IMG/VR virus record: IMGVR_UViG_3300045391_005020
Source of the DNA: a virus
Lineage: Duplodnaviria; Caudoviricetes
DNA length: 64,000 nt
Strand: one strand, 5' to 3'
How positions within the stretch are numbered: position 1 is the first letter of the stretch; the number at the start of each line of letters is the position of its first letter. Shown one piece after another: positions 1 to 60,779 of the stretch. A program made the position numbers and the translations under genes. Under the pieces are notes generated by a model. It saw only the letters and a list, made by a program, of their open reading frames with translations, had not been told where the DNA came from and searched no databases.

Positions 1-12
1 AAGGCGCTTTAT

Positions 13-26
13 GGGGGGGGGGGGGG
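13..26 (+). repeat. G14 homopolymer tract
   Basis: 14 consecutive G at the window edge, followed by AT-rich intergenic DNA. Confidence 0.9.
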
Positions 27-98
27 TACCATAACAATATATTTGATTCAAAGTATATAGACGTACAATTGGCCGGCCAGCAAAGGCCATGTCCATGT

Positions 99-749
99 AT
101 GCCAAGTAAGCCGAAATATACCAAAGAAGAAATGATAGAGAGAAGAAGGGATCGGAACAGAGTCTCGCGCGTGGGTCAAAGATATGGTGAGCTACAGGTT
201 ATCTCCCAGCGGTGGAATCCGCCGTCAGAACCTGGCGCCCGCGACGGCATGGTAATATGCACCCTTCGATGCAGCTGCGGTAAAATTGTCGAGTTGTCTT
301 CCCACGAGCTTGGAAGGCGTAAGCGTACTAACTGCGGATGCGCGACTGCTCCGATTCCAGCACGCGCGGATGTGGAGAACGATCAGGGCTGTGAGTTCAA
401 AGTCGGGTCAGTCGGATACGACATAGTGACCAACCGAATGCTGTGGTACATCGATAGTGCCTGTCGGCGTAATCTCGATTTTACGCTAACGCGAGTCCAA
501 TTCGAAAAGTTACTGTTCGGATCTTGCCATTACTGCGGGGCCCGCGGTCTATCGGAGGCTTCGAACCCAGCGCAGGGAATCCTCATCAACGGCGTGGACA
601 GAACTAACAACGGCCGCGGGTACCTGGATGGAAATTGTGTTTCATGCTGCAAGTACTGCAATATTGCCAAAAATACTCGTCCACCGCAGGTGTTCTTGGA
701 ATGGGTGGAGCGAATAGTAGCCATACACCCTCTACCTAAGGCGTCCTGA
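99..749 (+). CDS. HNH-family (homing-type) endonuclease
   Basis: N-terminal GQRYGELQV...CSCG...CGC module; C-terminal CHYCG...NGVDR...GY...NCVSCCKYCNIAK nuclease motif; ATG at 99 preferred over TTG at 69. Confidence 0.8.
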   Translation: MPSKPKYTKEEMIERRRDRNRVSRVGQRYGELQVISQRWNPPSEPGARDGMVICTLRCSCGKIVELSSHELGRRKRTNCGCATAPIPARADVENDQGCEFKVGSVGYDIVTNRMLWYIDSACRRNLDFTLTRVQFEKLLFGSCHYCGARGLSEASNPAQGILINGVDRTNNGRGYLDGNCVSCCKYCNIAKNTRPPQVFLEWVERIVAIHPLPKAS

Positions 750-1591: not shown

Positions 1592-2326
1592 ATGGCGGAG
1601 CAGCCCGACAGAATACAGGTAACCGCGGAAGAGCTGCGTGATGAGATGATCACGATCATGGCCGACCTGGTCATGGAGCGAGATGCCCTCAAGTTCGGCA
1701 AGTTCCTGCTGCGAGCCAATAAGTCGAGTCCGTACCAGATCGACGTCGGGGCCATGTGCCGCGGTCGCGATACCTTCACGATCGGCCGCGCCTACGCGCT
1801 TGCCATCAACCACAACTTCGGTCCAGATCTGAAGACTCTGGTCGGGGTTCCGGGCCGCGGAATCGCGATGGCGACTGTAGCCTCGTTCTACTACGCCCAC
1901 ATGTATAACTACGACTGCGCGTGGTCGTTTCCGAACCTCGCCGCGGCCAAACCGGACGAGCCGATCCCGTTCTGCGGCGCCCCGCTCGACGAAGAGTCGG
2001 CCGTGGTGATCGTCGATGACATCCTGTCCGACGGTACGGCGATCCGGGACACTATCGAGATGGTGAAGAAAACCGGCGCCAAGATTATGGGGGTCTGCTG
2101 CCTCATCGATCGCCGCGATCGCACAAAATCGAACCGGTTGGCTTCGACCGATATCGAACGCGAGACCGGCGTGCCGGTGGTCAGCTGCTGCACAGTCGCG
2201 GACCTCGTCCGTAAAATGCCTAGTTCGTACCTATCTGATGAAAAGCGCGAGCTGGTAATCAAGCACGTGACGGTGGAAACTGGTCCGCCCTTGCTACCGC
2301 CGTTCAATAAGCTGACGAACCTTTAG
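1592..2326 (+). CDS. pyrE: Orotate phosphoribosyltransferase-like type I PRTase (divergent)
   Basis: ALKFGKFLL...SPY N-terminal motif, PRPP-binding VVIVDDILSDGTAI, C-terminal GVCCLIDR; flexible catalytic loop not canonical. Confidence 0.7.
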   Translation: MAEQPDRIQVTAEELRDEMITIMADLVMERDALKFGKFLLRANKSSPYQIDVGAMCRGRDTFTIGRAYALAINHNFGPDLKTLVGVPGRGIAMATVASFYYAHMYNYDCAWSFPNLAAAKPDEPIPFCGAPLDEESAVVIVDDILSDGTAIRDTIEMVKKTGAKIMGVCCLIDRRDRTKSNRLASTDIERETGVPVVSCCTVADLVRKMPSSYLSDEKRELVIKHVTVETGPPLLPPFNKLTNL

Positions 2327-4755
2327 GCCTGACTGCGGGACCAGGCTCCGACCAGGTCCCACATGTTCTGGCTCACGATCCAGTGACCTACGTCGGATCC
2401 GACTAGCATTCCTGCCTGAGCTAGCTGCTTGGTCAGGCGCCCAATGTCCGCCGGCGCCAATACCGGGCTCGCAAATGCGGCCCTGACGTCAGCGTGTTCG
2501 ATCCTGATTCCGTCTTGGGTCTGCCGGATCGGCAAGATGTTCTCGTCGGCGAGTCTGCGGAGTAACCCGAGCGTCTTGGTTCCGATCGTGTGCTCAGACA
2601 GGATCCAGTTTGAATCCAATTGGGCAGCGCAGCTGAGCAGCAGGTGCTGTGGCCGGCTGAGGCTGACCACTGGTCCGACGATTTCGGCGATGCTGGTGAA
2701 GAAGCAGTCTGGTTTTATCAGGTCAGCGGTCGCGATCAGGATCGGGAGCGCCCGAAATACCCACCGGAGTGCCTGGAAGTCGCAGACGGATTCGACCGGG
2801 AGCCTGAGCCACTCGGGGTTCACCGCCAAGAGCTCGAACGAGCGCCGATCCAGCGACAGCATGACGTGCTTCGGCCCCGGATGGCGCATCAGTTCGACCA
2901 ACTTCTCATCCGACCATCGGCCCATAACCGGGAGGGGCCACATGGCTTCATTTTGGACGCGCTCGACCGAGGGATCGACTGAGGCCGACATCGCGAAGGC
3001 TTCGGCGGTGCGTTCCACCACGTGATTTGCCGACTGGACCGCGATGCAGAACGGTTGCTGGCCCGCATGGGTCCTGACCAGGTTGCCCAGCAGGGCCAAA
3101 ACCATCATGCAGAACCCTGGATCCAGGAATGCTTCCCACTCGGCGGGACTCAGGTTCTCCGGGTATGGGATATCGGGGCCTGCGACGCGCGACACCGCGT
3201 GCGAGACCGAATCCGAGTCGACCATGAAGCGCTGGAACCGCAGCACATCGCCTTCCCATCCGAACGGATGATCTGACGAGTAGGTCTTGATCGAGTCCTT
3301 GGAGAATTCGCGCCCGATATCGAGCAACCGAGCTCCCCACTTGGGTCCGTACCGGAACCACCCACCGTGCCTGGTGAGCAATTGCTCGAGCCACTTCACC
3401 GTTGCGGCTCCGCGGATCTTGGCTTTGTCTTCTTGGAACGGCACGACCTTGTCGTCGAACGACACGATGCCGCGCATGATCGAGTGACCCGACTTGGTGT
3501 CGTTGTGAATCTCGTCGATCCGGATCACCGCGTTGCTGACCAGCTTGCCATCCTGGGTCCAGCCGGATTTCGACTCGTCGATGCGGTCGCCATCAAATTC
3601 GATCGAGCGGCTGGTTGACGAATTACCGAAGTAGCGCGTCAGTTCGGCCGCGTCCTGGCCGGTGAAATGCGATTTGACCTGATTCTGCTCGGTGACGGTC
3701 AGACTCAGGTCTGCCGCACGTCGCGAACCTTCGGCGCCAGCACGTAGCAGGTAGGTTCCGATCGCCTGATAGGCCGGAACCGCAAGATTGGTCAGATGCC
3801 GGATCAGCGATTTCGACGTGTCCTTCTCGCGGTAGTCGGTCAGGAGCGAAAACTTCAAATCCCACTCCTGCACGGTGTGGGCGCCGTCATACCGGAGCGC
3901 CCGTTTGAGCCAGTGATGGATCGGCTGGTTATTCGATGATACCGGCAGGAACATAACGCGCTGATTCGCCAGCTGGTGTATCGGCTCTTCGTGACCAACC
4001 GGGATCGCGAACACCGTCATGCTGTTCTGATTGTCGACTGTTTGACGAACCATGAACCGCAAGGCGACTCGCGGGTCGTTGACCATCACGACTTGATCCT
4101 GCCCGATCCGGAGTGCATGTCCGTACGCGAGCGCCGCAGTGTAGCGCTGCAGTTTCACGAACATGTACCCCTGCGGGATCTTCTTGGGGTTCACCAGGTA
4201 GAGACCGACCAGACGGGACTGCTCCCAGACCGGTATCGCGAACGCGTGGTAGTTGCCCAGATCGGCCCGGAGCCGTTTCCGCTCCTCCTTGTCGAGGAAC
4301 AACTCCTCCAGGTCTGCCGCACCAAGGATCGAGTGGTTCCGTGCCAGGAGGTTTCCGTGGATCGCAAGGCTCATGCACCGAAGTTCGGTCAGGATCGCCT
4401 TCGCGGGCAGCGACATCCCTCCCTCAAGGCGCTTCTGGCCTTCCCGCCAGACCTTCAGGCAACGCTGGTTATAGTCCCGCTCCATCTGGTACGTGGACTG
4501 GCCAGCCTGGGTCATCTCAAGCCGCGCATCGATCTGGAGTTCGGCGACCGCCGCCGGCAGCTCCTGGCCGGATTTGCGCGCGTACAGCTCAACCACGTCC
4601 CCGATGAACCCGCACTGCTGGCAAATCAGGGTATCGGATCCCCGAACTTCTAACGCATCAACGGTTTGACACAAAGGGCATTGACACGAGAATGGTAGTA
4701 CATTCCGGTCACGGATTCCGCATTTTGCCAGAGCAAGGCTGAGGTCAATCTTCAT
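2323..4755 (-). CDS. Primase-like protein with N-terminal Zn finger, apparently degenerate TOPRIM and long C-terminal region
   Basis: CPLC...CQQCGFIGDVVELYA...AVAEL resembles the DnaG Zn-binding domain; FAIPVW...LVGL and YG...VVMV resemble the primase core; ATG 4755 (TTG 4767 alternative). Confidence 0.55.
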   Translation of the reverse strand: MKIDLSLALAKCGIRDRNVLPFSCQCPLCQTVDALEVRGSDTLICQQCGFIGDVVELYARKSGQELPAAVAELQIDARLEMTQAGQSTYQMERDYNQRCLKVWREGQKRLEGGMSLPAKAILTELRCMSLAIHGNLLARNHSILGAADLEELFLDKEERKRLRADLGNYHAFAIPVWEQSRLVGLYLVNPKKIPQGYMFVKLQRYTAALAYGHALRIGQDQVVMVNDPRVALRFMVRQTVDNQNSMTVFAIPVGHEEPIHQLANQRVMFLPVSSNNQPIHHWLKRALRYDGAHTVQEWDLKFSLLTDYREKDTSKSLIRHLTNLAVPAYQAIGTYLLRAGAEGSRRAADLSLTVTEQNQVKSHFTGQDAAELTRYFGNSSTSRSIEFDGDRIDESKSGWTQDGKLVSNAVIRIDEIHNDTKSGHSIMRGIVSFDDKVVPFQEDKAKIRGAATVKWLEQLLTRHGGWFRYGPKWGARLLDIGREFSKDSIKTYSSDHPFGWEGDVLRFQRFMVDSDSVSHAVSRVAGPDIPYPENLSPAEWEAFLDPGFCMMVLALLGNLVRTHAGQQPFCIAVQSANHVVERTAEAFAMSASVDPSVERVQNEAMWPLPVMGRWSDEKLVELMRHPGPKHVMLSLDRRSFELLAVNPEWLRLPVESVCDFQALRWVFRALPILIATADLIKPDCFFTSIAEIVGPVVSLSRPQHLLLSCAAQLDSNWILSEHTIGTKTLGLLRRLADENILPIRQTQDGIRIEHADVRAAFASPVLAPADIGRLTKQLAQAGMLVGSDVGHWIVSQNMWDLVGAWSRSQA

Positions 4756-6283
4756 GAACGCGATCAATTATCACAAGATGAGTCGCCTGCTGGCTGTAAC
4801 TGGCCGTCCTGCATATGTTAAGGTGGCCGGCGAGCAAGTCGACCCCGCAACTCCGGTGTATGCCGATCCCATCAAGAAGTTGTATCCCGTCCAGACCAAA
4901 GAAGCTACGTTCCTATCGTTTGTCAACGCTATTGATCAGAATGCTGACTCCCAGCAAATTCAGGAGATCCGCAAGTACGCGGCCTTCTGGAAAATCGAGG
5001 CTGACCTGGACGCCGCTGAGCAGGCCCTGATCGCCGACCGGACCGAGATGAGCCTGTCCGAGCTCCCCGACAGCGACTTTGCCCTGTGTCAGAAGCACGG
5101 CTCCGAAACGATCCGTAAATACGCCGCCGTCGACCCGACCACGACCGTCGAAGCCGCAATTGCGTTCTACGAGAACCGCACCCGCTACCCGCTCGAGTGG
5201 CGCAAGCAGGCCGCCGTGAACCTGCTGGCCCGCGCTGACCAGTTCGCGACACCGCTGCCGGCCTACGTCTCAGAATACCTCCACAAGGCCGCCGGCTACG
5301 CTGTCGCGACCACTGAAGCGATAGACCAGGCCCTCGGGGCCCGGATCGACCTGACGCCGGCGCGCGACCACGAGGCCCTCAACAAGATCGCGGTCGTCCT
5401 GAATAAGATCGCCGAGTCCGAAGAGCTCCGGTACAACACCGAGCTGGTCGCGGAAGTCCTGGGCGCGATGGATGAATACGATCGCGACATCAAACTCGCC
5501 CAGCATTACGAATCCGGCCGCCTTCCGCTCCCGGAAGAGATGCTGGCCATGACCGAAACCAGTCTCCAGAAGTACGCTGGTTGCCAGAACCGCATCGTGC
5601 GCCTCGTGAACGGCCATGAAGTCGACGTCGCCGATTTGTCGGTCGACGCGCTCGACGCGGTCGACGAGAAGCTCGCGGGCATGAGCCTGTCGAAGCTCGC
5701 CGAGGTTCTCCCGACTCTGCCAAAACCGGAAGCCGATCTCCTGATCGAGCTCCTCCCGGCTGCGCAGCACTGGAAGACGGCTGGCGACGAGACCAAGGCG
5801 GTCACTCCGGCCCCGACGCCGAATCCTGCTCCCGCTCCGGCCCCGACGCCGAATCCTGCTCCCGCGCCTGTGAATCCCAGCTTCGGTACTCCGGCCGCCG
5901 CGACCCCGGCACCGGTCACTCCGGCGCCAACCTCGGCCCCGGCGGTTCAGCCCGCCGCCCAGCCCGCGGCGACCCCGGTCGGCAACAATGCCTCGCCGGA
6001 TGAGTCGATCGATGACTACATCAACCGCATCAGCGCCCCCAAGACGGCGCCGGCGCCGACGATGAACAACACGCTCGACAACAGCACCGATATGGACGCC
6101 GACGCCGCGGCATTCGCTGCGAGTCCGGTGAAGAACTTCCAACCGGTCAAGCAGGTGGTCCCCGGCGCAACGCTTCCCAACGGCAACATCAAGGTTCCGC
6201 CCGGCAAGCTGTGGGTCGACACCCCAGAAGGCCGGCGCGCGACCGCTCGCGATCCGAACTTCCATCGCGGTTCGAACAAATAA
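4754..6283 (+). CDS. Hypothetical phage protein, helical K-x-A-rich body with Pro/Ala-rich tail; predicted internal head protein
   Basis: 509-aa ORF with phage-typical codon usage; 14 of 26 Lys in K-x-A context; start may be ATG 4778. Confidence 0.7.
   Translation: MNAINYHKMSRLLAVTGRPAYVKVAGEQVDPATPVYADPIKKLYPVQTKEATFLSFVNAIDQNADSQQIQEIRKYAAFWKIEADLDAAEQALIADRTEMSLSELPDSDFALCQKHGSETIRKYAAVDPTTTVEAAIAFYENRTRYPLEWRKQAAVNLLARADQFATPLPAYVSEYLHKAAGYAVATTEAIDQALGARIDLTPARDHEALNKIAVVLNKIAESEELRYNTELVAEVLGAMDEYDRDIKLAQHYESGRLPLPEEMLAMTETSLQKYAGCQNRIVRLVNGHEVDVADLSVDALDAVDEKLAGMSLSKLAEVLPTLPKPEADLLIELLPAAQHWKTAGDETKAVTPAPTPNPAPAPAPTPNPAPAPVNPSFGTPAAATPAPVTPAPTSAPAVQPAAQPAATPVGNNASPDESIDDYINRISAPKTAPAPTMNNTLDNSTDMDADAAAFAASPVKNFQPVKQVVPGATLPNGNIKVPPGKLWVDTPEGRRATARDPNFHRGSNK
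5805..5865 (+). repeat. 30-bp perfect tandem repeat x2 encoding PAPTPNPAPA
   Basis: ctccggccccgacgccgaatcctgctcccg occurs twice head-to-tail. Confidence 0.9.
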
Positions 6284-6286
6284 TCC

Positions 6287-6997
6287 GTGCAACACGCCAG
6301 CGACCAGCTTCGGCGCGTCGCTGGACAGTTCCTGTCCGGCGAGCGTGAAACCTACGCCACCGTCCTGTTGGGCATCCTGTTCCAGGTCTACGGCGCGGAG
6401 TGTTTGAACTGGGATCCGCTCACTCTCCAGGCGCAGATCACCGAGGATTTCGGGGTCCACATGCCTGATGTGGTGAATGATCAGCTGATGGCGATGGTGG
6501 CTGCTATGACCAGCGACACAGTATACACATCGGTCCACGCATTCGACCAAACCGTGAACGCGTTCTGCCGCGTCGGCGTCGATCACGATCAGGATATGCC
6601 GGCCCCGGAAGAAGTCGCTTGGACCGTGTTCGAACTGACTATGAACGATCCGGATCCGTACGGTCAGACCTCAGAGTGGCCGTTCAGCCCGGATATAGCG
6701 CGCTACGTTGGCGTGGTGCTGGCGGACGCTGGCCTGAAGCGCGCCCCCGAGACCCTAGAGTTTGCGATCATGCCCGAGTGGGTTCCGAAGAATCTCGGGG
6801 ATCACCCGCAAGAATTCGCCGAGGCCTATCATTCGGCTGAAGAACAGTCCGCCCAGATCGACCAGTTCGTCCAGAAGCACTTCCAGGTGCTCGTCAGCCA
6901 CCTGCACGAGATCGGGGTCGAACCGGCTCCGCCAGCCCTGGCACAAGCAGAGGATCTGCCTGAAGAAAGCCCGCTAGATCGGCTGCTTCCTGGCTGA
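6287..6997 (+). CDS. Hypothetical acidic phage protein
   Basis: 236-aa ORF starting 3 nt after the upstream stop, globular composition. Confidence 0.75.
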   Translation: MQHASDQLRRVAGQFLSGERETYATVLLGILFQVYGAECLNWDPLTLQAQITEDFGVHMPDVVNDQLMAMVAAMTSDTVYTSVHAFDQTVNAFCRVGVDHDQDMPAPEEVAWTVFELTMNDPDPYGQTSEWPFSPDIARYVGVVLADAGLKRAPETLEFAIMPEWVPKNLGDHPQEFAEAYHSAEEQSAQIDQFVQKHFQVLVSHLHEIGVEPAPPALAQAEDLPEESPLDRLLPG

Positions 6998-7190
6998 ACA
7001 GGTGCGATCGCACGATCGCGCTGAACAGGTCATCGGAAAGTTCCGAGGTTTCGGTTTGTTTTCCGCATTCCCCGCACGGCTTCTGGGCACGCACGCGTTT
7101 CACGTATGCCGCGGCCGGCTTGAGCGAATTGAATTTCCCCAAGAGCGCGGTGCTGACCAACAGTTCCTTGGTCAGGACCTTACTAGACAT
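6894..7190 (-). CDS. Small CxxC-containing hypothetical protein
   Basis: Start overlaps upstream stop; PCGECG motif; 3' end overlaps the convergent gene by about 100 nt. Confidence 0.55.
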   Translation of the reverse strand: MSSKVLTKELLVSTALLGKFNSLKPAAAYVKRVRAQKPCGECGKQTETSELSDDLFSAIVRSHLFSQEAADLAGFLQADPLLVPGLAEPVRPRSRAGG

Positions 7191-7593
7191 CGGTGGTCAG
7201 GTCCGAAGTGATCGCGATCGTGCTGATCACGCTCAAGTCGGAATTGATCTTCGCCATCTCGTCGGCAAGGACCTTGAGCTCGGCCAGGATCTCGTCCTGG
7301 ATCTCGAGGGCCTCGATCTTGCTGCCAAATACCAGATCGATTTCGGCTGAGCGGAACCAGCCGGTCTTCTCGTCCGGCAGATCGATCTGGAAATCGACCA
7401 GGTCGGACGGACGGCAGATCGCGCTGAACATGTCGGCTTCGCCTTGGCGCTGGAACAGGAACACGGCACCATCGGCGAAACCGCGGACCGGACTGCACAC
7501 CATTTTGATCCTGTAACCCTGCGTGCGGCCATCGACGAAGTCGGTGGTCTGCTGGGAGGCGATCGAAAGTTCAAATGCTGGAACTGCGGTCAT
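7183..7593 (-). CDS. Hypothetical protein
   Basis: 136-aa ORF coupled to both neighbours. Confidence 0.7.
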   Translation of the reverse strand: MTAVPAFELSIASQQTTDFVDGRTQGYRIKMVCSPVRGFADGAVFLFQRQGEADMFSAICRPSDLVDFQIDLPDEKTGWFRSAEIDLVFGSKIEALEIQDEILAELKVLADEMAKINSDLSVISTIAITSDLTTDV

Positions 7594-7849
7594 GGAACAC
7601 CTGTTTGGCGCTAGCGATCAATTGTGGGACGAGTGATTTTAGGGCCGGGTTGGCCTCGACGAAATTGGCAATCTCGATCTGGAGATGAGTCAGCCGTTCG
7701 ATGCGTTTCCGCTCCTCGCAGGCGCTGCACCCTTCTTTGACGGTGCCAGCTTCGATGACGCGTTTCCGGTACGGCGTCAACTCTGGCGCCATCCCGTCGA
7801 GCAGCGGCGAGTCGAGCATAATCAGTAGGTCAAAATCGTTGTCGCTCAT
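7571..7849 (-). CDS. Small CxxC-containing hypothetical protein
   Basis: ATGA overlap with upstream gene; GCSACEE motif in a helical context. Confidence 0.7.
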   Translation of the reverse strand: MSDNDFDLLIMLDSPLLDGMAPELTPYRKRVIEAGTVKEGCSACEERKRIERLTHLQIEIANFVEANPALKSLVPQLIASAKQVFHDRSSSI

Positions 7850-8622
7850 GCGAGGTAGGCCTTCCAGCGAACGCGTCCGCCTGCCTGGACTGCAGCGCGC
7901 TCCAGTGTGACGGTATCGCCCTGAATCATCGGTTCTCGATCGGCGTTCACGATCTCGTTTTGGCTAGCATCCAGCTGTTCACCGACGTCTCCGAGAATTC
8001 CGGCGTTATCGACAACCGGGACTTCAGCACCAGGTGCGTACGCGGTCGCGCAGCACGCACTCGCCATCGGGCTGGTGGTGCCTCCTACCGTGTCGGTTCC
8101 GACCGTGAATCCGGTGCCGCCGTCGGTCGGGAGTGTTGCGTTGATGGTGAGCCCGGCTCCGCACTGGTTGTTGTCGCGATTGCTGGTCGGCGGGTCTACC
8201 GTGATACCCGACGGGTACCCGGTCGCCGAATTCACGCTCGCACTGATAATCGTGCACGGGAACTTCAGTTTCTGGATCAGGGTTGGACGACACGCGTCAC
8301 CGTTTCGGTGCGTAACCGAGTGTTCGACCGATCCTGCATCGCCGGTTTCGATCTCGATGTCCTGCTGGATGGTCGGGCAGTGGGTTCCGAGGCTGGGCGG
8401 GAATGGCGGCAACTGCGGATGCAGGGGGCGCGGCTGCTTGAGCTTTCCGAGCGGTTCGGTCACGAACGCATACGGCCGCACCTTAAACAGCGGTGTCGCG
8501 TGACACGACTTGGTCTCGAACGGCTGCGCGTCCACGCACGAAGCGGAATGCGCTACCGTCGGATACTTGTCAGTATCGTCCAGGTCAGGCAGCTCGACTG
8601 GGCCGAAGTCAAGGTTGGGCAC
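7846..8622 (-). CDS. Cys/Thr/Pro-rich putative virion (baseplate-associated) protein
   Basis: 258-aa ORF at the end of the baseplate operon, 8 Cys. Confidence 0.6.
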   Translation of the reverse strand: MPNLDFGPVELPDLDDTDKYPTVAHSASCVDAQPFETKSCHATPLFKVRPYAFVTEPLGKLKQPRPLHPQLPPFPPSLGTHCPTIQQDIEIETGDAGSVEHSVTHRNGDACRPTLIQKLKFPCTIISASVNSATGYPSGITVDPPTSNRDNNQCGAGLTINATLPTDGGTGFTVGTDTVGGTTSPMASACCATAYAPGAEVPVVDNAGILGDVGEQLDASQNEIVNADREPMIQGDTVTLERAAVQAGGRVRWKAYLA

Positions 8623-9685
8623 GTTTCAAATCCTGCGCGTTGATCAAAACCAAGATCCGGTGTCCAGCCGGGTCCGGGACCAGCGTCACGCCATCGCCAG
8701 CCACGAGTGTGAAATTACCATCTTGGGTGTGCGCACCATTGATCGATTTCACACAATCCTTGGCCAGGGTCCCCAGATCCGGGAACCCTTTCACCTCTGC
8801 ACAATCGACCCCGAGTCCGGCGCCGAGCCGATAGCCAAGCCGGATCAGGTTCTGGGACAGATCCCCGTTCAGGACCGTATTGTGGCCAGCCTCCAGGAGT
8901 GGTGCGCTCGCGAGGGCCCCTGAGCCATCGACTTCGGCATCATGCGTGGTTGGCAGAGACGGGATCTCATCGTCGATCGTCACCGCGTGGGTTGTGATGG
9001 TCACCACGGATGAATTGACGTAGTGGGTGTACTCAGTCTCGGGCGGTTCGACCGCGACATCTACTGTGGATGTACCCTGAACCGTCGGGGTGACCTTTTC
9101 CTGTGTTTCCACTGGTTCGGTCGTGACCTCGACGCAGCCAGCCACCACGGCCGCAGTGCGATTCTGCAGCATGAATGACGATGCAGCGCCTTCAGTCTCG
9201 TCACACGATGACGGACCGGCATGAACCTTGTTCGCAACCCGGAGCGTGGTGACGTGTCCAGTATCAGAGACGCGGACTACCGACGGATCGAGTTGATCCG
9301 AGAGTCCGGTCAGGCTCGCGACCCAGCTGTCGAGCGATGCGGGATTTCCGATAAACGCGATCCCGTATCCGAGTTCCGGGTGCGGAACCGAGCTGCTGTC
9401 CTGAAGGCTCAAGATGATACGGGTGTCCTCTTCATCGGATGTACTGAACGATCCGACCAGCTTGTAGCCCGTCTTAGCCGACGACACGATCGCGAACGTG
9501 AGTTCGACGGTCGATCCATCTGATTCCACCTCGTTCAATTCGATCCCGCCATTATCGAGGAACAGCTGAAACTCGCTCGAGAGCACACACAGCATGTCGA
9601 CGAGGATATCGTCATTGAACGGCGGCGTCGCGTCGAGTCGGAACGGGAATTTCCGGTAATGATTTTCGGTTAGCCACTGGTTCAC
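8609..9685 (-). CDS. Putative baseplate/short-fibre protein, paralogue 5 of 5
   Basis: N-term NQWLTENHYRKFPF...DDILVD; C-term VKSINGAHTQDGNF. Confidence 0.7.
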   Translation of the reverse strand: MNQWLTENHYRKFPFRLDATPPFNDDILVDMLCVLSSEFQLFLDNGGIELNEVESDGSTVELTFAIVSSAKTGYKLVGSFSTSDEEDTRIILSLQDSSSVPHPELGYGIAFIGNPASLDSWVASLTGLSDQLDPSVVRVSDTGHVTTLRVANKVHAGPSSCDETEGAASSFMLQNRTAAVVAGCVEVTTEPVETQEKVTPTVQGTSTVDVAVEPPETEYTHYVNSSVVTITTHAVTIDDEIPSLPTTHDAEVDGSGALASAPLLEAGHNTVLNGDLSQNLIRLGYRLGAGLGVDCAEVKGFPDLGTLAKDCVKSINGAHTQDGNFTLVAGDGVTLVPDPAGHRILVLINAQDLKRAQP

Positions 9686-13311: not shown

Positions 13312-13326
13312 GGGACTCCATGGCTG

Positions 13327-15036: not shown

Positions 15037-15037
15037 G

Positions 15038-53473: not shown

Positions 53474-54409
53474 TCAGCTCGTTGCGATGCGGACGCGGGC
53501 GACAGCGGCAGGGTTGCCGATCGTGGCGCCGCGCTCACAGTACGCGTAGAACTCCAGGTTGAACGCCTTCTTGTCGACGTACATCGTGGTGTCTTCGAGC
53601 ACGTAGCTCTTGCCGAGGAACTCGGGGCTGGCGAACAACCAGAACTCCGACTCACCGACCAGCTCGTGCTTGTTGGTGATGACCCAGTTGACGCCCAGCA
53701 GTTTCTTCTGCTGGAAGCCGTCGACGAACATCGACTCGCTGAGGTCGCCGCCGGCCGTGTCGCGGCCGAACTTGGCAACATCTTCGATCGTGATGTTGTT
53801 GCAGAGGATCGTGACCGCTTCGAGGTGCGCGAAGGTCCGCTTCAGGATCTTCTTCATCTCGAAGAGCGAGGAACGGGTGATGCCGTTCGCGTCGACGATC
53901 TTCTTGTTCTGGATGATGCCCGTCTCAGGGACGGTCGAGCCTTCGGAGCCGACGATGCTCTGGCACGCGGCCAGCATCTTGCGGTCGAACTCGAAATCCA
54001 TGTCGAGGATCGCGTTGTCCGAGATCACCTGGCGGATGTCCATTCCGTACGTGCGGAGTTCGGACATGTCCTTGGTGAATTTCGGGGTGACGATGCGATC
54101 GAAGTACACCGGGTAGCGGTCGCCGCGGAAGTAGTACTGGATCGGCTGCTGGCCGAGCGGGATCGTGATGGCGGCCGGCGAATTCGGTTCGCGTTCGACC
54201 AGCTTCACGTTCTTGTCGGTGTTGAGCTGCGGGGTGAGTTCGTCATCACCGATCTTCACCGCGGGCATGATCTTCTCGAAGAAGCTGCTTTCGCGGATGC
54301 GGATGCGGGTGAAATCCGTCACCATATCGGCGGCTTCTTTGATCTGCCCGGCTTCGAGCATACCATAAAAAGCGCGGTTTGACTGTTGTGCGCTGACTTT
54401 AGTGGTCAT
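53474..54409 (-). CDS. Major capsid protein (HK97 fold)
   Basis: 311 aa after protease-scaffold-decoration genes, followed by a strong terminator; RESSF..KI.P N-arm, E-loop-like EREP, C-terminal G.TIGN..AV. Confidence 0.82.
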   Translation of the reverse strand: MTTKVSAQQSNRAFYGMLEAGQIKEAADMVTDFTRIRIRESSFFEKIMPAVKIGDDELTPQLNTDKNVKLVEREPNSPAAITIPLGQQPIQYYFRGDRYPVYFDRIVTPKFTKDMSELRTYGMDIRQVISDNAILDMDFEFDRKMLAACQSIVGSEGSTVPETGIIQNKKIVDANGITRSSLFEMKKILKRTFAHLEAVTILCNNITIEDVAKFGRDTAGGDLSESMFVDGFQQKKLLGVNWVITNKHELVGESEFWLFASPEFLGKSYVLEDTTMYVDKKAFNLEFYAYCERGATIGNPAAVARVRIATS

Positions 54410-55022: not shown

Positions 55023-55466
55023 TTACCGGGCGCCAGGCAGACGATTCAGGGCGGAAACCGTGTGGCGATCCCACACGTCGTCTGCCGTCTCTGGTTTGGT
55101 CTCGTTGATCACAACGGTGCCGACCTTGGGGGCCGAATCGATGTAATCCGCGACTTTGGTGAGCGCGTCGAGAGCCTTCTCATGGCTCAGGACATTGGCC
55201 GCGAACTGGTCGCGACGCTCAGGGGAGGAGAGCAGGCCGCGATCGAACAGCTTGTCCGCGGCCGTCTTGGCCAGCGGGGCGATCTTGGCTGCCGCTTCTT
55301 GGGCTGCCTGATCGCGCTTCGAGCCGGCGTCTTTCGACGAGCTCAGCTCAGCTGCGAGCTTGGTGTTCTCTTCCGTTTTGGTTGTGAGGGCTGACTCGAG
55401 CTCGGCGATTTTGGTCGCCTGGGCTTCGATGGTGTCAGCAGCCTGCTTGATCAGTTTGGCGCTCAT
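55023..55466 (-). CDS. Small coiled-coil scaffold-like protein
   Basis: 147 aa helical; 7 of 14 Lys in K-x-A context. Confidence 0.65.
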   Translation of the reverse strand: MSAKLIKQAADTIEAQATKIAELESALTTKTEENTKLAAELSSSKDAGSKRDQAAQEAAAKIAPLAKTAADKLFDRGLLSSPERRDQFAANVLSHEKALDALTKVADYIDSAPKVGTVVINETKPETADDVWDRHTVSALNRLPGAR

Positions 55467-55474
55467 GGGGTCCC

Positions 55475-56986
55475 TTATTTCGCAGCCGCGGTTTCGAGTT
55501 CGGCGACCTTGCTCAGGATCTGCCGGCGGACTTCGATCCGCGCAGCCGCCATCTTGGCAGCGGCGGGGTCACTGTGGTGATGAGCCTTCTGGGCCATGAG
55601 GGCCTTGAGGTCATCCATGGTCAGGCCCATCTCGTGCAGGACTTGCTCGAGGGCCTGTTGCTCTTCCGGGCTCTTGGGGGCGAGAACCGACGAGTCGTTC
55701 GTCATGGCGTCAGCCGGGTGAGCGGCAGGGGCGTCATGCTTCGGAGCATCGTGCGCGGGAGCATCATGAGGGGGCAACGCTTCGGCTTTCTTCTCGCCCT
55801 TGTCGGCCGGAAGATCCTTCTTGGCGTTGTTGTCGACTTCAGCTTTGGTACCGACCGCTTCGCCTTCGGCAGGCTTCAGCTCGGCCTTCTGGACCTTCGG
55901 GGCTTCGATGCCGCCTTCAGCGTCTTTGGTACCGTCTTCGACGTTGTCGCCGATCATGCCTTCCGCGATCTTGACCGCGTAGGCGTAACCAGCATCGACC
56001 GCCTCCTTGTGGAGGGTGGCGATCTTTTGGAGATAGAGGGGATGCTCGGGGCCGATGTTGGCCGCGGCCATCTTGGCTTCGAGGCCTGGATCTTCGACCA
56101 TCTCGCCGCCGGCAGCAGCCGGATCAGCGGCAGGAGCCGGAGCGCCCATCGGGGCCGGGGCACCCATCGGAGCAGGAGCCGCGCCGCCAGCTGCAGCGGC
56201 CGGATCGCCGGCAGGAGCAGCAGCGCCGCCCGCGCCGTGCAGTTCCTGCATGGCCTGGGTCAGCTCTTGTTCGCTGATCGCGCCGCTCTGGACGGCTTCG
56301 AGCAGAATCTTTTCAGCATCTTCCTCGGAGAGAGCGCCGGATTGAATGGCCTGCATGAGGCCATCGGCCGACTGGTCGGCAACAGCGGGATCGGCCATTC
56401 CGGCCGCAACCTTGTTGGTCGCGCGGGCCTGCTTGACCAGGAATTTCTCCAGGCCGCTCAGCTCGCGGGTCTCTTCGGAAGCTTTCTTATTGAGGATCGC
56501 AGCCAGCTTGGCTTCCGCTTTCGCGGTGTCGGGCTTCGCCGGCTCTTCAGCTTTTTTTGCGGAGGCTTCCATTTCGGAAGCGACCTTGCGCAGTTCTTCG
56601 ACCAGGGCCGACGCGGTCTTCTTGTCGTCGCCCTTGATCCCGCCTTCGGGGCCGTTGGCGGCTTCGTGTTTCACTTCGAGCTCAGCGCCCTCGGTGCCCT
56701 TCTGGCCGTCAGTCGAAACCGCGGTCGCGCCGTCGGTCGACATTTCGAGCGAAGCGCCGGACGGGTTGGTCTTGGCGCCGCCGTCGACCATCGCCTTGGT
56801 GCCCTTCGCCGCTTCAGACTTGTTCGACGCCATCTGGGCGCCGGTCTCGACCGCTTTGGTACCATCTTCGGCGCCGTCGCCGGGAGAGGCGGTTTTGACC
56901 GCAGCTTCAGCGGTCTTCTTGTGATCATCGCCAACCTTGTTGATCAACGTGTTCAGGCGCTCGAGGATTTGCTTGCGGTGCGACAT
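55475..56986 (-). CDS. Low-complexity scaffold/internal core protein
   Basis: Ala/Glu/Lys/Pro-rich, between protease and MCP; ATG 56986 has an AGGA SD; many K-x-A motifs. Confidence 0.7.
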   Translation of the reverse strand: MSHRKQILERLNTLINKVGDDHKKTAEAAVKTASPGDGAEDGTKAVETGAQMASNKSEAAKGTKAMVDGGAKTNPSGASLEMSTDGATAVSTDGQKGTEGAELEVKHEAANGPEGGIKGDDKKTASALVEELRKVASEMEASAKKAEEPAKPDTAKAEAKLAAILNKKASEETRELSGLEKFLVKQARATNKVAAGMADPAVADQSADGLMQAIQSGALSEEDAEKILLEAVQSGAISEQELTQAMQELHGAGGAAAPAGDPAAAAGGAAPAPMGAPAPMGAPAPAADPAAAGGEMVEDPGLEAKMAAANIGPEHPLYLQKIATLHKEAVDAGYAYAVKIAEGMIGDNVEDGTKDAEGGIEAPKVQKAELKPAEGEAVGTKAEVDNNAKKDLPADKGEKKAEALPPHDAPAHDAPKHDAPAAHPADAMTNDSSVLAPKSPEEQQALEQVLHEMGLTMDDLKALMAQKAHHHSDPAAAKMAAARIEVRRQILSKVAELETAAAK

Positions 56987-57015
56987 TGGGGTGGGTTCCT
57001 GATGATCTGGTGTAA

Positions 57016-57044
57016 AAATTACAGGGGTCAGTTTAGACACGCAA
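57016..57044 (-). promoter_or_regulatory. Putative promoter TTGCGT-N17-TAATTT for the scaffold-capsid operon
   Basis: Spacer GTC-N6-GACCC shared with 61836-61864. Confidence 0.55.
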
Positions 57045-58373
57045 GTCGTTACTTGCGGCAACAGCGGTTAGGACGGCTTCGTCCGCTCGGTTGCTTGGAT
57101 ATGCAGCGAAAGCCAGCTTGTAATGCAGATACAATCGCGAGAGCCCGAGATGCTCGGCGCGATCGATTGCGATCCCGGCCGACTTGACTGAATCGGCTGG
57201 TTTCATGATCGTGATGCGAACAATTCGAGCCCCGACCGGTTGCGCCTTCATCGACGCCTTCTCGTTCAGCTCGGACGCAGTATCTTCACCGAAGTCCAGA
57301 TTTGACACGTCGTTGTGTCCATCCAGTGAGGACATCTCGGGATCCTGTTCTTCCAGGAGTCCACTGAAGCCGCCCTGCACATCGGGTTCGCCGCACATGC
57401 AGGCCAACTTGGATTGGCCGACGATGATCTCGGTGAAATCCTGGAACGACAGCATGTGACCAGCGCGGTGAAGGGTGGTCAGCACCGCTTCAACTCCGTG
57501 CAAATCTGCTGCCTGCTTGATCTGTTTGACCGCGCGATCCGAAAGCTTCATCGGACCCGCGCCCGACACGGCCTTGCCGTGACCCGCGACGCGCTTCTCA
57601 ATTTCAGCCAACCGGACGAGGGTCGCCTTCTTGACCTGATCGTCGTCGAGCCCGTACGCCTCTGCCAATTCGTGGCCGCCAATCACGCCATTTTGTGACG
57701 CGACCTTGGCCAGCGCGTACCCGATCCTGTCGGCCGGCTTGTAGACCGTGCTGATGTCGAAGTACTTCGGGTTCGGATTCTGCATGTAGATCTGGCGACC
57801 GTCCGCCAGCACTTCACCCAGCTTGGTCTTGATGTGATCGCAGTGGTGGCGCGCGGTCGGGGCCTTATGGCCGCAATAGCTGCAAACGTCGTAGTCCTGC
57901 TTGGAACCCATCGAAACCGGAATGTCTTCACCCCGCGCGAACGCGTCGAGTTCTTCTGCGTACTTCGTGTTGTCGAGTGCGATCAGAAGTTCGATGCGGC
58001 GCATGTCCGGATTGTGGGCAGTCGCCAGCACTTCGCCGGTTTTCAGGATCGGCGAGTGGTTCTTGTGGTTCTTGAAAACGTGACCGTTTTCTTTGAATCC
58101 AGTATGGGCCGTGACATTGTCTTTTTCGCTGAAGCCGTCGCAGTTGCGGTTCGGGCCGTACGCTTCTTCGTCGCCGACCGCGAGCACGTGCAGAACCGAG
58201 TGGCCCTTCACGCCGCCTTCGTCGGCGATCTTCTGCAGAGTCTTGCTGAATAGTCCATCGGCCGCTCGCTTCTCGAGCCAGCCCGCGTCGACGCCGCGGC
58301 GATGCAGCGGAACCAACGCGACGTTAAGATCGTTGAAGTCGTACGAGTCGGTGAGGATCAGTTTGCGAATCAT
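57033..58373 (-). CDS. Putative prohead (capsid maturation) protease
   Basis: N.N.D.F, VF.NH.N (His), VSMG (Ser), CSYCG...C.H Zn site, FDIS.V..PAD; upstream of scaffold and MCP. Confidence 0.72.
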   Translation of the reverse strand: MIRKLILTDSYDFNDLNVALVPLHRRGVDAGWLEKRAADGLFSKTLQKIADEGGVKGHSVLHVLAVGDEEAYGPNRNCDGFSEKDNVTAHTGFKENGHVFKNHKNHSPILKTGEVLATAHNPDMRRIELLIALDNTKYAEELDAFARGEDIPVSMGSKQDYDVCSYCGHKAPTARHHCDHIKTKLGEVLADGRQIYMQNPNPKYFDISTVYKPADRIGYALAKVASQNGVIGGHELAEAYGLDDDQVKKATLVRLAEIEKRVAGHGKAVSGAGPMKLSDRAVKQIKQAADLHGVEAVLTTLHRAGHMLSFQDFTEIIVGQSKLACMCGEPDVQGGFSGLLEEQDPEMSSLDGHNDVSNLDFGEDTASELNEKASMKAQPVGARIVRITIMKPADSVKSAGIAIDRAEHLGLSRLYLHYKLAFAAYPSNRADEAVLTAVAASNDLRV

Positions 58374-59321: not shown

Positions 59322-60779
59322 TTAGACGTCTTTCTTGCCGCGGGCGCGAGCCAGCGTGTCGAACGGGAGTGAACCTTCGGAGGCGAGCGACTGACGCATC
59401 AGGCTCGACAGCTCAGCGGTGCTGAGATTCGGGTTCACGCCTTTGACCTTGTTGTATGCGCTGACGACATCCTGGATCGGATGTTCACGGATGTACGGGT
59501 CGGCTAGCAGTTCCTCGATATTGCCGCGCGAGTCGGCGTTCGAGATCTGCTGACGAATGCTAACCGGCAGCGCGGTTTCCTCGGTGAGGGGTTCCGGTTT
59601 ATCCTTGCTCGGATCAGCGACCGAACCGGCGGCGCCGCCGTACAGATCGATCTGATCGTTCGGATCCATGCCGGCGCCAGTCATTTTGTCCGGCAGGTTC
59701 GCGATATCGCCCGACAGAGCCTTGACGCCTTCCGCGGCGCTGCCCAACCCGAGACCGATCGTGACGGCAGTCTTGAGATATTCGTCGGCGTTTTCGAGAC
59801 CGGCGCGCAGCAGGTCGCGCGCAGCCAGCTTCTCGCCCGCGATCAGGTACGCGGCTTCAACGCTGTGCATCGCGTCGACTAGTGACTGTTCGCGCGGCGA
59901 CACATCATTGAGGCCGGCGAGCTTCTCGCCCGAGGCGCGCTTGTGGCCCAGACGATCGAGGCTGCCCGCTTCGAACAGCATCGCGATCGTTTCGTCGCTG
60001 ACGCCCGAGAGGATCGCGAGCTTTTCGATCCGATCGAAACGCGGGGAGTCGGTGCGGCGGAATTCATCCGCGAGCTTGAAGAGGCCGTCGAGTGCAATGT
60101 CGTAGGCCTTGGTGTAGGCCAGCGACGCTTCGTCGGCCGCGTGCTTGATCGCGGTGAGCTGATGAAACGGATTGCCGGTCGTGCGGCCTTCGCCCGAAAT
60201 GTCGACTTTGACTTGGTGATGATCGCCCACCGTGACCGCAACCTTGGTGGTCTTGTGGGTCAGCGGATCCGGTCCGCCGAGCGCGTTCTGGAATGCGGCG
60301 GCGTGGTCTTCCTTGTTGCCGGCCAGGTACGAACCCTTGTCGTGATTGGATTCCAGAGCGGCCTTACGACGACGCTTCAGCTTCGGAGCGTTGGTGACCG
60401 GCATGTCGAGCGCGGCAGCCAGCTTGGGCTCCATCGCGTCGGTCTTCTCGTTCTTCTCGGCGTCCTTCTCGTCCTTCTTGGCCGCGGCGTCTGAGGCCGG
60501 GTCGGCGTCGTAGAGGCGCTGGTTCACCACTTCGGCGTTGGTGATCGGGAAGGCTTTGTCCTTCTCGTTGGCGTCCGAGTTGGCCAGCACCGAGAGGGTC
60601 TTGGAGTTGTTGATCGCGTGGCTGACCCGGAGGACTTCGTTCGAGGTCAGTTCGCCGTCGCGGGCGACTTTCAGGAGGGCGGCGTTGGGGTCGATCCCGA
60701 TATTCATCAGACCGATCGCCTGCTCGGCGCACTTGATCAGGTGCTGGTGCCGATCATCGGACATCAATTGGAGTGACAT
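59322..60779 (-). CDS. Hypothetical head-module protein, K-x-A rich
   Basis: 485 aa helical; about 12 K-x-A motifs. Confidence 0.7.
   Translation of the reverse strand: MSLQLMSDDRHQHLIKCAEQAIGLMNIGIDPNAALLKVARDGELTSNEVLRVSHAINNSKTLSVLANSDANEKDKAFPITNAEVVNQRLYDADPASDAAAKKDEKDAEKNEKTDAMEPKLAAALDMPVTNAPKLKRRRKAALESNHDKGSYLAGNKEDHAAAFQNALGGPDPLTHKTTKVAVTVGDHHQVKVDISGEGRTTGNPFHQLTAIKHAADEASLAYTKAYDIALDGLFKLADEFRRTDSPRFDRIEKLAILSGVSDETIAMLFEAGSLDRLGHKRASGEKLAGLNDVSPREQSLVDAMHSVEAAYLIAGEKLAARDLLRAGLENADEYLKTAVTIGLGLGSAAEGVKALSGDIANLPDKMTGAGMDPNDQIDLYGGAAGSVADPSKDKPEPLTEETALPVSIRQQISNADSRGNIEELLADPYIREHPIQDVVSAYNKVKGVNPNLSTAELSSLMRQSLASEGSLPFDTLARARGKKDV

What the first reader, a model, noticed from the sequence alone, without database searches (positions are those of the whole stretch)
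4754..6283. Orphan gene 50 kb from the head cluster carries the K-x-A signature most strongly
Seen: 14 of 26 Lys are K-x-A (KVA, KEA, KYA x3, KQA, KAA, KIA x2, KLA x3, KTA x2). A KTA sits at the boundary between the helical body and the disordered Pro/Ala tail. The gene is on the opposite strand, next to replication-type genes. Inference: it is a capsid-internal or ejected protein whose tail is removed at maturation. It is an independent test of the K-x-A hypothesis.
Basis: partly seen in the sequence, partly recalled or inferred. Interest (0 to 1): 0.7.

Follow-up and report, generated by a model that had tools for sequence, protein, structure and literature searches.

The report
Predicted multi-site substrate of prohead protease
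This jumbo-phage gene belongs to a very large unnamed phage protein family in which half of all lysines sit in an evenly spaced K-x-A motif; the same motif marks the phage's capsid-maturation protease and its neighbours, so the protein is most likely cut into small pieces when the capsid matures, although this has not been tested at the bench.

Summary
In detail: ORF 4754-6283 (+, 509 aa) has 14 of 26 Lys as K-x-A (4.3 expected, P about 5e-5), the strongest excess among about 200 predicted proteins. It is not an orphan: a profile finds 1,669 cluster representatives with no named family. Across 156 members, 51% of Lys are K-x-A (1,914 against 485 expected), spaced about 26 residues apart; K and A co-vary, and lost sites reappear nearby. 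In five phage genomes (45-60% GC, two cultured), K-x-A ranks first of 1,600 residue-pair patterns in the head-gene cluster and is not among the top patterns elsewhere. The per-protein outliers are this family, the prohead protease and its neighbours. The protease has the T4 gp21/herpesvirus assemblin fold (Z 10.2). The same scan recovers T4's known I/L-x-E motif. All five capsid proteins keep K-[EQ]-A at residues 24-27. Best reading: K-x-A is this clade's cleavage motif, and the protein is a prohead-internal substrate that is fragmented at maturation, with its variable Pro/Ala tail released at a conserved boundary site. Cleavage has not been shown experimentally. It is a new variant of a known kind.

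The parts
4754..6283 (+). Target gene, 509 aa (P0001): conserved body plus variable tail
   Evidence: ORF list; 14/26 Lys in K-x-A; member of a family of at least 1,669 cluster representatives
4754..5788 (+). Conserved body, residues 1-345: mixed helix/strand fold with 13 K-x-A sites about 26 residues apart
   Evidence: AF2 model mb6a1246965c4, mean pLDDT 81.6; no informative PDB fold match; gap CV 0.45 against 0.89 for random placement, P 0.003
5774..5782 (+). K341-T-A343, predicted cleavage site at the body/tail boundary
   Evidence: 35 of 38 tail-bearing relatives have K-x-A within 35 residues after the LPTLP motif, typically PK[TV]AA; alignment A1
5783..6280 (+). Pro/Ala-rich, poorly conserved C-terminal tail (residues 344-509), with one more K-x-A at 430 and a perfect 30-bp x2 duplication at 5805-5865
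   Evidence: Alignment A1: tail variable, absent from P0011-P0014; TRF
6287..6997 (+). Co-directional 236-aa acidic partner gene; not K-x-A enriched
   Evidence: Adjacent in L001/L002 and G002, about 9 kb away in G004; no family match
2323..4767 (-). Divergent primase-helicase-like gene (zinc ribbon/Toprim/DUF927-like)
   Evidence: Atlas features 0.96, 201/256 shared; divergent arrangement also in L001, L003 and G002
57033..58373 (-). Prohead protease, 446 aa: gp21/assemblin-fold domain plus a C-terminal extension; 11 K-x-A against 3.5 expected
   Evidence: phrog_18299 E 3.9e-10; VIA: T4 gp21 5jbl_B Z 10.2, rmsd 3.0, 131 aligned, herpes proteases Z 6-8.5; invariant H103 and S154; enrichment
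57699..57707 (-). Invariant K223-V-A225 just after the protease fold, in a low-confidence linker: predicted self-cleavage site
   Evidence: K223 and A225 invariant in 30 sequences; pLDDT below 50 at residues 221-229; site list
59322..60779 (-). 485-aa head-cluster protein, 13/35 Lys in K-x-A: predicted substrate
   Evidence: orthologues in G002 and G004 also enriched
55475..57061 (-). Ala/Glu/Lys-rich 528-aa scaffold-like protein, 18 K-x-A against 10.1 expected; the true start is probably the Met at residue 27
55023..55466 (-). 147-aa helical scaffold-like protein, 7/14 Lys in K-x-A
53474..54409 (-). Major capsid protein candidate, 311 aa
   Evidence: NF042927 HK97-fold MCP, E 7.7e-7, below cutoff; 26% identical to the annotated MCP of Arash
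54332..54340 (-). K24-E-A26 of the capsid protein: predicted propeptide cleavage site
   Evidence: K-[EQ]-A at residues 24-27 in all five orthologues; the only K-x-A in the G004 and D69 proteins

Best explanation
The gene encodes a prohead-internal protein that is a multi-site substrate of the phage's own capsid-maturation protease. The protease (57033-58373) has the T4 gp21/herpesvirus assemblin fold. I infer that it cuts after the Ala of K-x-A, with the wider preference [L/M/F/I]-[E/V/T]-K-x-A then [S/A/G/E], that is P5 to P1'. The target carries about 13 such sites at roughly 26-residue spacing through its conserved 345-residue body, plus one at the junction with the Pro/Ala tail. On protease activation the tail would be released and the body cut into peptides of about 2 to 5 kDa, as happens to T4 scaffold gp22 and to the propeptides of SPN3US and phiKZ head proteins. 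Shown here: the motif statistics, their conservation across the family, their restriction to the protease, its neighbours and this family in five genomes, and the protease fold. Inferred: that K-x-A is the cleavage motif, that cutting is after Ala, that the protein enters proheads, and that all sites are used.
For: (1) 14/26 Lys in K-x-A, top of about 200 proteins. (2) Family-wide: 1,914 of 3,781 Lys against 485 expected, 154/156 members at P<0.01; K-x-A is the top pattern in the family. (3) K and A(+2) co-vary (odds ratios 8-224), and missing sites are replaced within +-8 columns, e.g. 94/100 at slot 272/273. The longest motif-free stretch has a median of 49 against 81 expected. There is no internal repeat and codons are mixed. 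(4) In five genomes K-x-A ranks first of 1,600 patterns in the head cluster and is not among the top four patterns in the rest of any genome. The per-protein outliers are this family, the protease and its neighbours. (5) Blind test: the top K-x-A protein of Vibrio phage D69 proved to be the orthologue of the Arash family member. (6) Positive control: the same scan on T4 gp67/68/21/22 gives I-x-E first and L-x-E second; gp22 has 16 sites against 5.8 expected and gp21 has 7 against 2.6. (7) Protease fold: T4 gp21 Z 10.2. An invariant K-V-A lies in the flexible linker after the fold. (8) The capsid protein keeps K-[EQ]-A at residues 24-27 in all five phages. (9) The unrelated substrates share the same flanking preferences, and control sites do not. 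This parallels SPN3US A-X-E with Val at P4 and Ser at P1' (PMC10052503). (10) The Arash homologue was detected in particle preparations with 12 unique peptides and 359 spectra.
Against: No cleavage has been observed anywhere. No peptide-level data are available, because the Arash supplement holds only a gene table. Nine of the 13 body sites lie in predicted helices of a confidently folded domain, where a protease may not reach them. A few sites (K23, K178) sit in deeply conserved blocks and could be there for fold or function. The Arash proteome lists 116 of 272 proteins, including ribonucleotide reductases, so detection there is weak evidence for virion location. Detection with 12 peptides also argues against complete removal from particles. 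The gene is on the other strand, beside a primase-like gene, and its expression timing is unknown. In more distant phages with a related protease (phage G, Catera) the excess is weak.
Confidence: 0.6

Rival explanations
1. The protein is a regulator of the prohead protease rather than a passive substrate. It would act as a pseudo-substrate or timer that occupies or inhibits the enzyme until assembly is complete, like T4 Inh, a minor head protein annotated as an inhibitor of gp21.
For: T4 inh lies outside the head-gene run on the opposite strand, is annotated 'minor head protein inhibitor of protease', and has a mild excess of the T4 motif (9 against 4.6 expected). The target has a conserved folded domain with near-invariant polar residues (R150, R197, D243, E261), which is more than a disposable scaffold would seem to need. 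The Arash homologue persists in particle preparations.
Against: No homology to T4 Inh (hhalign probability 1.2%). The motif density and even spacing match T4 gp22, which is degraded, better than Inh. Nothing here separates inhibition from plain substrate behaviour.
Confidence: 0.15
2. K-x-A is a structural feature of this fold, for example a helix-packing pattern, and has nothing to do with proteolysis. The co-enrichment in head proteins would then reflect their Ala/Lys-rich helical nature.
For: Several sites are in conserved columns (K23, K49, K178, K314), and most lie in helices. Scaffold-like proteins are Ala/Lys-rich.
Against: Sites occur in helices, a strand and loops with no fixed position within the element. 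All tests are corrected for composition. Sites drift between neighbouring columns while slot occupancy is kept. T4's helical scaffold shows no K-x-A excess (rank 39). The capsid protein and the protease linker carry single, conserved, well-placed sites. Flanks of the 13 sites are no more alike than random anchors.
Confidence: 0.1
3. K-x-A is recognised by something other than the protease: a lysine-modifying or cross-linking enzyme, or a docking surface that targets proteins into the prohead.
For: The invariant residue is a Lys, a common target of modification. The motif is shared by proteins that must all reach the prohead interior.
Against: No candidate modifying enzyme was seen in the head cluster. 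The three-residue P3-x-P1 layout with a small P1' residue, the site in the protease's own linker and the site near the capsid protein N-terminus all match how clan-SH prohead proteases are known to act.
Confidence: 0.07
4. The protein works with the neighbouring primase-helicase-like gene in DNA replication and is not a virion or prohead component.
For: The divergent pairing with the primase-like gene is conserved in L001, L003 and G002.
Against: The pairing is absent in G004 and Arash, where the gene lies next to tail or baseplate genes. This reading does not explain the motif. The Arash homologue is detected in particles.
Confidence: 0.05

Closest known systems
T4 prohead core and scaffold proteins (gp22, gp67, gp68) cut by protease gp21 at L/I-x-E
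   Same: A protease of the same fold. A three-residue P3-x-P1 motif is over-represented in the scaffold/core proteins and in the protease itself (gp22 16 against 5.8 expected; gp21 7 against 2.6), at a density like the target's (14 against 4.3).
   Different: The motif is K-x-A, not L/I-x-E. The target has no sequence relationship to gp22 (hhalign probability 0.1%). It is a mixed helix/strand domain rather than a simple helical scaffold, and it lies about 50 kb from the head genes.
phiKZ/SPN3US giant-phage head maturation (proteases gp175/gp245, motif S/A/G-x-E or A-X-E)
   Same: The cut is C-terminal to a P3-x-P1 motif, with Val at P4 and Ser at P1'. Long propeptides are cut at several sites, and the protease cuts off its own C-terminal part (PMC10052503). 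That substrates are encoded away from the head cluster in those phages is from my own knowledge.
   Different: P1 is Glu there and Ala here; P3 is Ala there and Lys here. In SPN3US most cuts remove N-terminal propeptides and leave a mature body, whereas here the sites run through the whole conserved body. Those motifs are proven by mass spectrometry; this one is only predicted.
Herpesvirus assemblin and its maturation/release sites ((V/L/I)-x-A then S; consensus quoted from my own knowledge)
   Same: Same protease fold (Z 6 to 8.5). Ala at P1 and a small residue at P1'. A self-cleavage site between the protease domain and a C-terminal scaffold-like extension parallels K223-V-A225 followed by Ser here.
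   Different: P3 is hydrophobic in herpesviruses and Lys here. Herpes substrates carry one or two sites, not a dozen.
T4 Inh (minor head protein, inhibitor of gp21)
   Same: Encoded outside the head-gene run on the opposite strand, a head component, with a mild excess of the protease motif.
   Different: No homology. The target's enrichment is far stronger and evenly spaced.
T4 internal proteins IPI-III and Alt (capsid-targeting sequence removed by gp21; from my own knowledge)
   Same: Prohead-internal proteins encoded far from the head genes and processed by the prohead protease. The first K-x-A of the target lies near the N-terminus (residue 23), as in the other predicted substrates (residues 5 to 37).
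   Different: The T4 proteins are cut once or twice and survive to be ejected. The target's sites span the whole protein.

Membership tests
Substrates of clan-SH (gp21/assemblin-type) prohead proteases (functional class) | The phage encodes a prohead protease of this fold in its head module | tested here: met
   57033-58373: phrog_18299; T4 gp21 Z 10.2, rmsd 3.0, 131 aligned; it lies about 2.6 kb from the capsid gene on the same strand
Substrates of clan-SH (gp21/assemblin-type) prohead proteases (functional class) | Carries the protease's recognition motif above chance, shared with other head-assembly proteins | tested here: met
   The motif itself is inferred from enrichment; the method was validated on T4
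Substrates of clan-SH (gp21/assemblin-type) prohead proteases (functional class) | Physically present in proheads and cut there | not testable with these tools
   The only evidence is detection of the remote Arash homologue in a loosely purified particle preparation. No peptide-level data are held
T4 gp22 / Inh protein families (by descent) | Detectable sequence or profile similarity | tested here: not met
   hhalign probability 0.1% (gp22) and 1.2% (Inh); no Pfam, PHROG or NCBIfam match
Phage scaffolding proteins (functional class) | Encoded between the portal/protease and capsid genes | tested here: not met
   The gene is about 47 to 50 kb from the head cluster on the opposite strand
Phage scaffolding proteins (functional class) | Absent from mature virions | tested here: inconclusive
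   The Arash homologue is detected, but so are many non-structural proteins in that preparation
Prohead protease family (T4 gp21 / assemblin; MEROPS clan SH, name from my own knowledge), for gene 57033-58373 | Catalytic Ser and His conserved | tested here: inconclusive
   H103 and S154 (in VSMG) are invariant in 30 sequences and H62 is nearly so. A residue-level superposition on the gp21 catalytic residues was not available
Pfam DUF6582 | Match to the Pfam model | tested here: not met
   The target has no match. Five of 57 relatives match weakly. An Atlas structural row links residues 1-104 to a cluster in which 19% of members carry DUF6582

The most novel reading that the evidence does not exclude
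The family is not merely disposable scaffold. It could be a conserved precursor deliberately cut into a set of about 26-residue peptides that stay in the head or enter the host, in the manner of the T4 internal peptides (from my own knowledge). Alternatively, it could be a pseudo-substrate timer that controls when the prohead protease acts. Either way K-x-A would define a previously unknown specificity class of gp21/assemblin-type proteases, shared by a large and almost entirely uncultured clade of phages with genomes of roughly 150 to 215 kb.
Probability: 0.15. Interest if true: 0.75.

Novelty: new variant of a known kind. Interest (0 to 1): 0.6.

Why it matters
If it holds, this gives three things. 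First, a predicted cleavage specificity (K-x-A, with Ala at P1 as in herpesviruses) for a widespread and unstudied branch of prohead proteases. Second, a first functional handle on a 'dark' phage protein family with at least 1,669 cluster representatives and no annotation. Third, a simple method that was validated on T4: ranking residue-pair patterns in head-gene clusters can read a prohead protease's motif from sequence alone and then find its substrates anywhere in the genome. The method found the Vibrio phage D69 family member blind. Two cultured relatives, Salmonella phage Arash and the Vibrio D69 group, make the prediction directly testable.

Tried and rejected
- **Family libraries:** Pfam, PHROGs and NCBIfam gave nothing for the target. 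Of 57 relatives, only 3 matched phrog_16160 (unknown function) and 5 matched DUF6582.
- **Cultured phages:** tblastn against cultured phages found nothing for the target, P0099 or P0150.
- **Fold search of the target:** Foldseek against the PDB gave no hit at E <= 0.001. VIA wide gave only generic helical-bundle matches (best Z 6.3, residues 183-272). BFVD gave two uncharacterised viral proteins. The ESM Atlas gave only unnamed viral clusters.
- **Protease by sequence:** a profile search against PDB sequences found nothing, and Foldseek alone was weak (E about 0.02). The fold was shown only by the structural aligner.
- **Genome-wide bias:** rejected. The observed total is 183 against 154 expected, and the excess comes from a few proteins.
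- **DNA-level motif:** rejected because codons at the sites are mixed.
- **Internal tandem repeat:** rejected.
- **Paralogy of the three window outliers:** rejected, since BLASTP finds nothing.
- **Arash supplements:** they hold only a gene table, not peptides.
- **Other:** The search for related loci with the wide alignment A3 failed for lack of a conserved stretch. The σ70-type promoter and terminator scan gave no more than chance. Complex prediction was not used, because enzyme-substrate pairs are a poor use of it.
Full report
**Observation.** The ORF at 4754..6283 (+) is real and encodes 509 aa. Shuffling gives 4.3 (P about 5e-5). In the body (residues 1-345), 13 of 19 Lys carry the motif against 2.9 expected. 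Ala is enriched only at +2, not at any other offset from -5 to +5. K341-T-A343 lies where the confident part of the model ends and the Pro/Ala tail begins. The window is part of a jumbo-phage contig: 148.6 kb is held here, and the same protein sits on a 214.9-kb contig in the database.

**Not an orphan.** The word-indexed search found 14 relatives on contigs of up to 214 kb. A profile of the conserved body then found 1,669 cluster representatives at E <= 1e-3, 945 of them at E <= 1e-10, mostly 300 to 420 aa. None has a named family. Of 57 relatives scanned, 3 match PHROG 16160 (unknown function) and 5 match DUF6582. The body folds with good confidence (pLDDT 81.6) into a mixed helix/strand domain with no informative match among solved structures. 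It does resemble two uncharacterised viral proteins in BFVD. The tail is variable and is missing from many members.

**The motif marks the whole family and behaves as a linear motif.**
- Across 156 members, 1,914 of 3,781 Lys (51%) are K-x-A against 485 expected. 154 members are individually significant, including those only about 25% identical to the target.
- K-x-A is by far the top of 1,600 residue-pair patterns in the family.
- Successive sites are a median of 26 residues apart, with few short gaps.
- In the target the gap CV is 0.45 against 0.89 for random placement (P 0.003).
- Across the family the longest motif-free stretch has a median of 49 residues against 81 expected.
- K and the Ala at +2 appear and disappear together (odds ratios 8 to 224). 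Where a canonical site is missing, another usually lies within +-8 columns; for example 94 of 100 cases at slot 272/273, and the 151-160 slot is 93% occupied.
- Sites fall in helices (9), a strand (1) and loops (3), with no fixed position within the element.
- The flanks of the 13 sites are no more alike than random anchors, and the only tandem repeat is a 30-bp duplication in the tail.
- Codons at the sites are mixed.

An internal repeat, a DNA-level signal and a single structural role are therefore all unlikely. The caveat is that family members are related, so counts over members are not independent events.

**The motif points to the prohead protease.** K-x-A is not a genome-wide bias (183 observed against 154 expected). 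With improved gene calls, the outliers in this genome are:
- the target;
- the 446-aa protein at 57033-58373 (11 against 3.5 expected);
- the 485-aa, 528-aa and 147-aa proteins around it.

The same holds in two metagenomic relatives that I fetched whole (G002, 53% GC; G004, 47% GC) and in two cultured phages (Salmonella phage Arash, 53% GC; Vibrio phage D69, 45% GC). In each, the top-ranked proteins are the family member, the protease and the protease's neighbours. In an unbiased scan, K-x-A ranks first of 1,600 patterns in the head cluster of all five genomes and is not among the top four patterns in the rest of any of them. The top protein of D69, chosen on the motif alone, proved to be the orthologue of the Arash family member (44.6% identity, E 9e-60). 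That Arash protein is in turn a full-length remote member of the family (hhalign probability 96%). As a positive control, the same scan on T4 gp67, gp68, gp21 and gp22 returns I-x-E first and L-x-E second, which is the known gp21 motif. K-x-A ranks 39th there. The degraded scaffold gp22 has 16 sites against 5.8 expected, and the protease has 7 against 2.6.

**The enzyme.** The N-terminal domain of the 446-aa protein matches PHROG 18299, 'head maturation protease'. Its model (pLDDT 76) aligns best to T4 gp21 (Z 10.2, rmsd 3.0 Å, 131 residues) and then to herpesvirus assemblins (Z 8.5 to 6). H103 and S154 are invariant in 30 sequences. K223-V-A225 is also invariant and lies in a low-confidence linker directly after the fold. 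That is where proteases of this kind are known to cut themselves (SPN3US gp245). K35 lies in, and K48 just after, the low-confidence N-terminal stretch that precedes the first β-strand of the fold. The 311-aa capsid protein candidate has only two K-x-A, and one is at residue 24. All five orthologues, down to 26% identity, keep K-[EQ]-A at residues 24 to 27, and it is the only K-x-A in two of them. The protease co-occurs with the family in 7 of 9 metagenomic records, including all 4 that are at least 90% complete.

**Site profile.** The target family and the unrelated head-cluster proteins share the same preferences around K-x-A: L/M/F/I at -2, E/V/T at -1, and S/A/G/E just after the Ala. Control sites in the rest of the genomes lack them. 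Read as P5-P4-P3-P2-P1 then P1', this parallels SPN3US (A-X-E, Val at P4, Ser at P1'). From my own knowledge, it also parallels herpesvirus sites ((V/L/I)-x-A then S).

**Context.** This pairing and the 236-aa downstream partner are kept in close relatives but not in G004 or Arash. In Arash the gene follows the PAAR spike and other structural genes. In G002 and G004 it lies within about 10 kb of homologues of the genes at window 7183-15589, the distal end of the structural block. So it sits at the edge of the virion block. In Arash the homologue (GenBank gp242, paper Gp243) was detected in particles with 12 unique peptides and 359 spectra, close to the protease's 365. That proteome lists 116 of 272 proteins, including metabolic enzymes, so this is only weak support.

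**Mechanism proposed.** The protein is made, enters the assembling prohead (inferred), and is cut after the Ala of each accessible K-x-A when the protease is activated (inferred). The cut at K341-T-A343, a site conserved in 35 of 38 tail-bearing relatives, frees the variable tail. The remaining cuts reduce the body to peptides of about 2 to 5 kDa. I put this at about 0.6.

**Rivals.**
- An Inh-like regulator of the protease (0.15).
- A purely structural motif (0.1).
- Recognition by another enzyme or by a docking surface (0.07).
- A replication role unrelated to the motif (0.05).

**Novelty.** The kind of system is well known from T4, phiKZ/SPN3US and the herpesviruses. New here are the predicted specificity (no report of it in the searchable literature), the very large unannotated substrate family, and the dense, evenly spaced layout of sites through a folded domain. 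The family is not related by descent to T4 gp22 or Inh. Everything rests on sequence statistics and predicted structures; no cleavage has been observed.

Noticed in passing
L023:1619-3523 (G002 protease; also P0210): The prohead protease of relative G002 carries an insertion of about 190 aa directly after the invariant VSMG motif that holds the likely catalytic Ser. It starts with Cys and ends with His-Asn followed by Ser, and the database copy (P0210) carries Pfam Intein_splicing (PF14890). This looks like an intein in a prohead protease active site. In G009 the protease matches are split within a 1,043-aa open frame, which suggests another insertion.
   Followed up: partly
window 4750-4760: The ATG of the target (4754) and an in-frame ATG of the divergent primase-like gene (minus strand, 4755-4753) overlap in the palindrome TTCATGAA. 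The listed TTG start of that gene (4767) even overlaps the target ORF by 14 nt. Each gene's promoter and ribosome-binding site would then lie inside the other gene. G002 shows a similar 8-nt head-to-head overlap, whereas L001 has a 179-nt gap.
   Followed up: partly
window 1-26: The first 24 bases lie off the held contig, and bases 13-26 are a run of 14 G. This looks like a contig-end or sequencing artefact.
   Followed up: no
window 3-749 and 751-1494: Two adjacent paralogous HNH/endonuclease VII-like genes (PHROGs 374, 1035, 3118, 3322), followed at 1592-2326 by a phosphoribosyltransferase-domain protein (PF00156, E 6e-10).
   Followed up: no
window 55475-57061: The 528-aa scaffold-like ORF is listed from a TTG start. 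Its first 26 residues look non-native, and the Met at residue 27 (MSHRKQILERL) is a more likely start. On the opposite strand a slightly longer spurious ORF (55574-57187) misled a length-only gene caller.
   Followed up: partly
L062 (Bacillus phage G gp19, gp21) and L063 (Mycobacterium phage Catera gp94): More distant phages with a related protease show only a mild K-x-A excess, confined to the protease-bearing protein and one neighbour: phage G gp19 8 against 2.5 expected, gp21 7 against 2.8, and Catera gp94 18 against 8.3. The K-x-A specificity may be older than the clade studied here, or these may be chance.
   Followed up: partly
Salmonella phage Arash, OQ632216.1 172.5-175.8 kb: Gene numbers in the paper and its supplement run one ahead of GenBank from about gp241, because the paper has an extra minus-strand gp241 at 172528-172992. 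The family member is GenBank gp242 but Gp243 in the paper's Table 2.
   Followed up: yes
window 38407-40614: A 735-aa protein in the tail region has a C-terminal Laminin_G_3 / concanavalin-like domain (PF13385, E 1.2e-5, just below the cutoff). It is a candidate receptor-binding or fibre protein.
   Followed up: no
G004 and Vibrio phage D69, outside the head cluster: C-x-x-C is the most over-represented residue pair in the non-head proteins of G004 (63 against 21 expected) and D69 (48 against 18), pointing to many small zinc-binding proteins in these phages.
   Followed up: no
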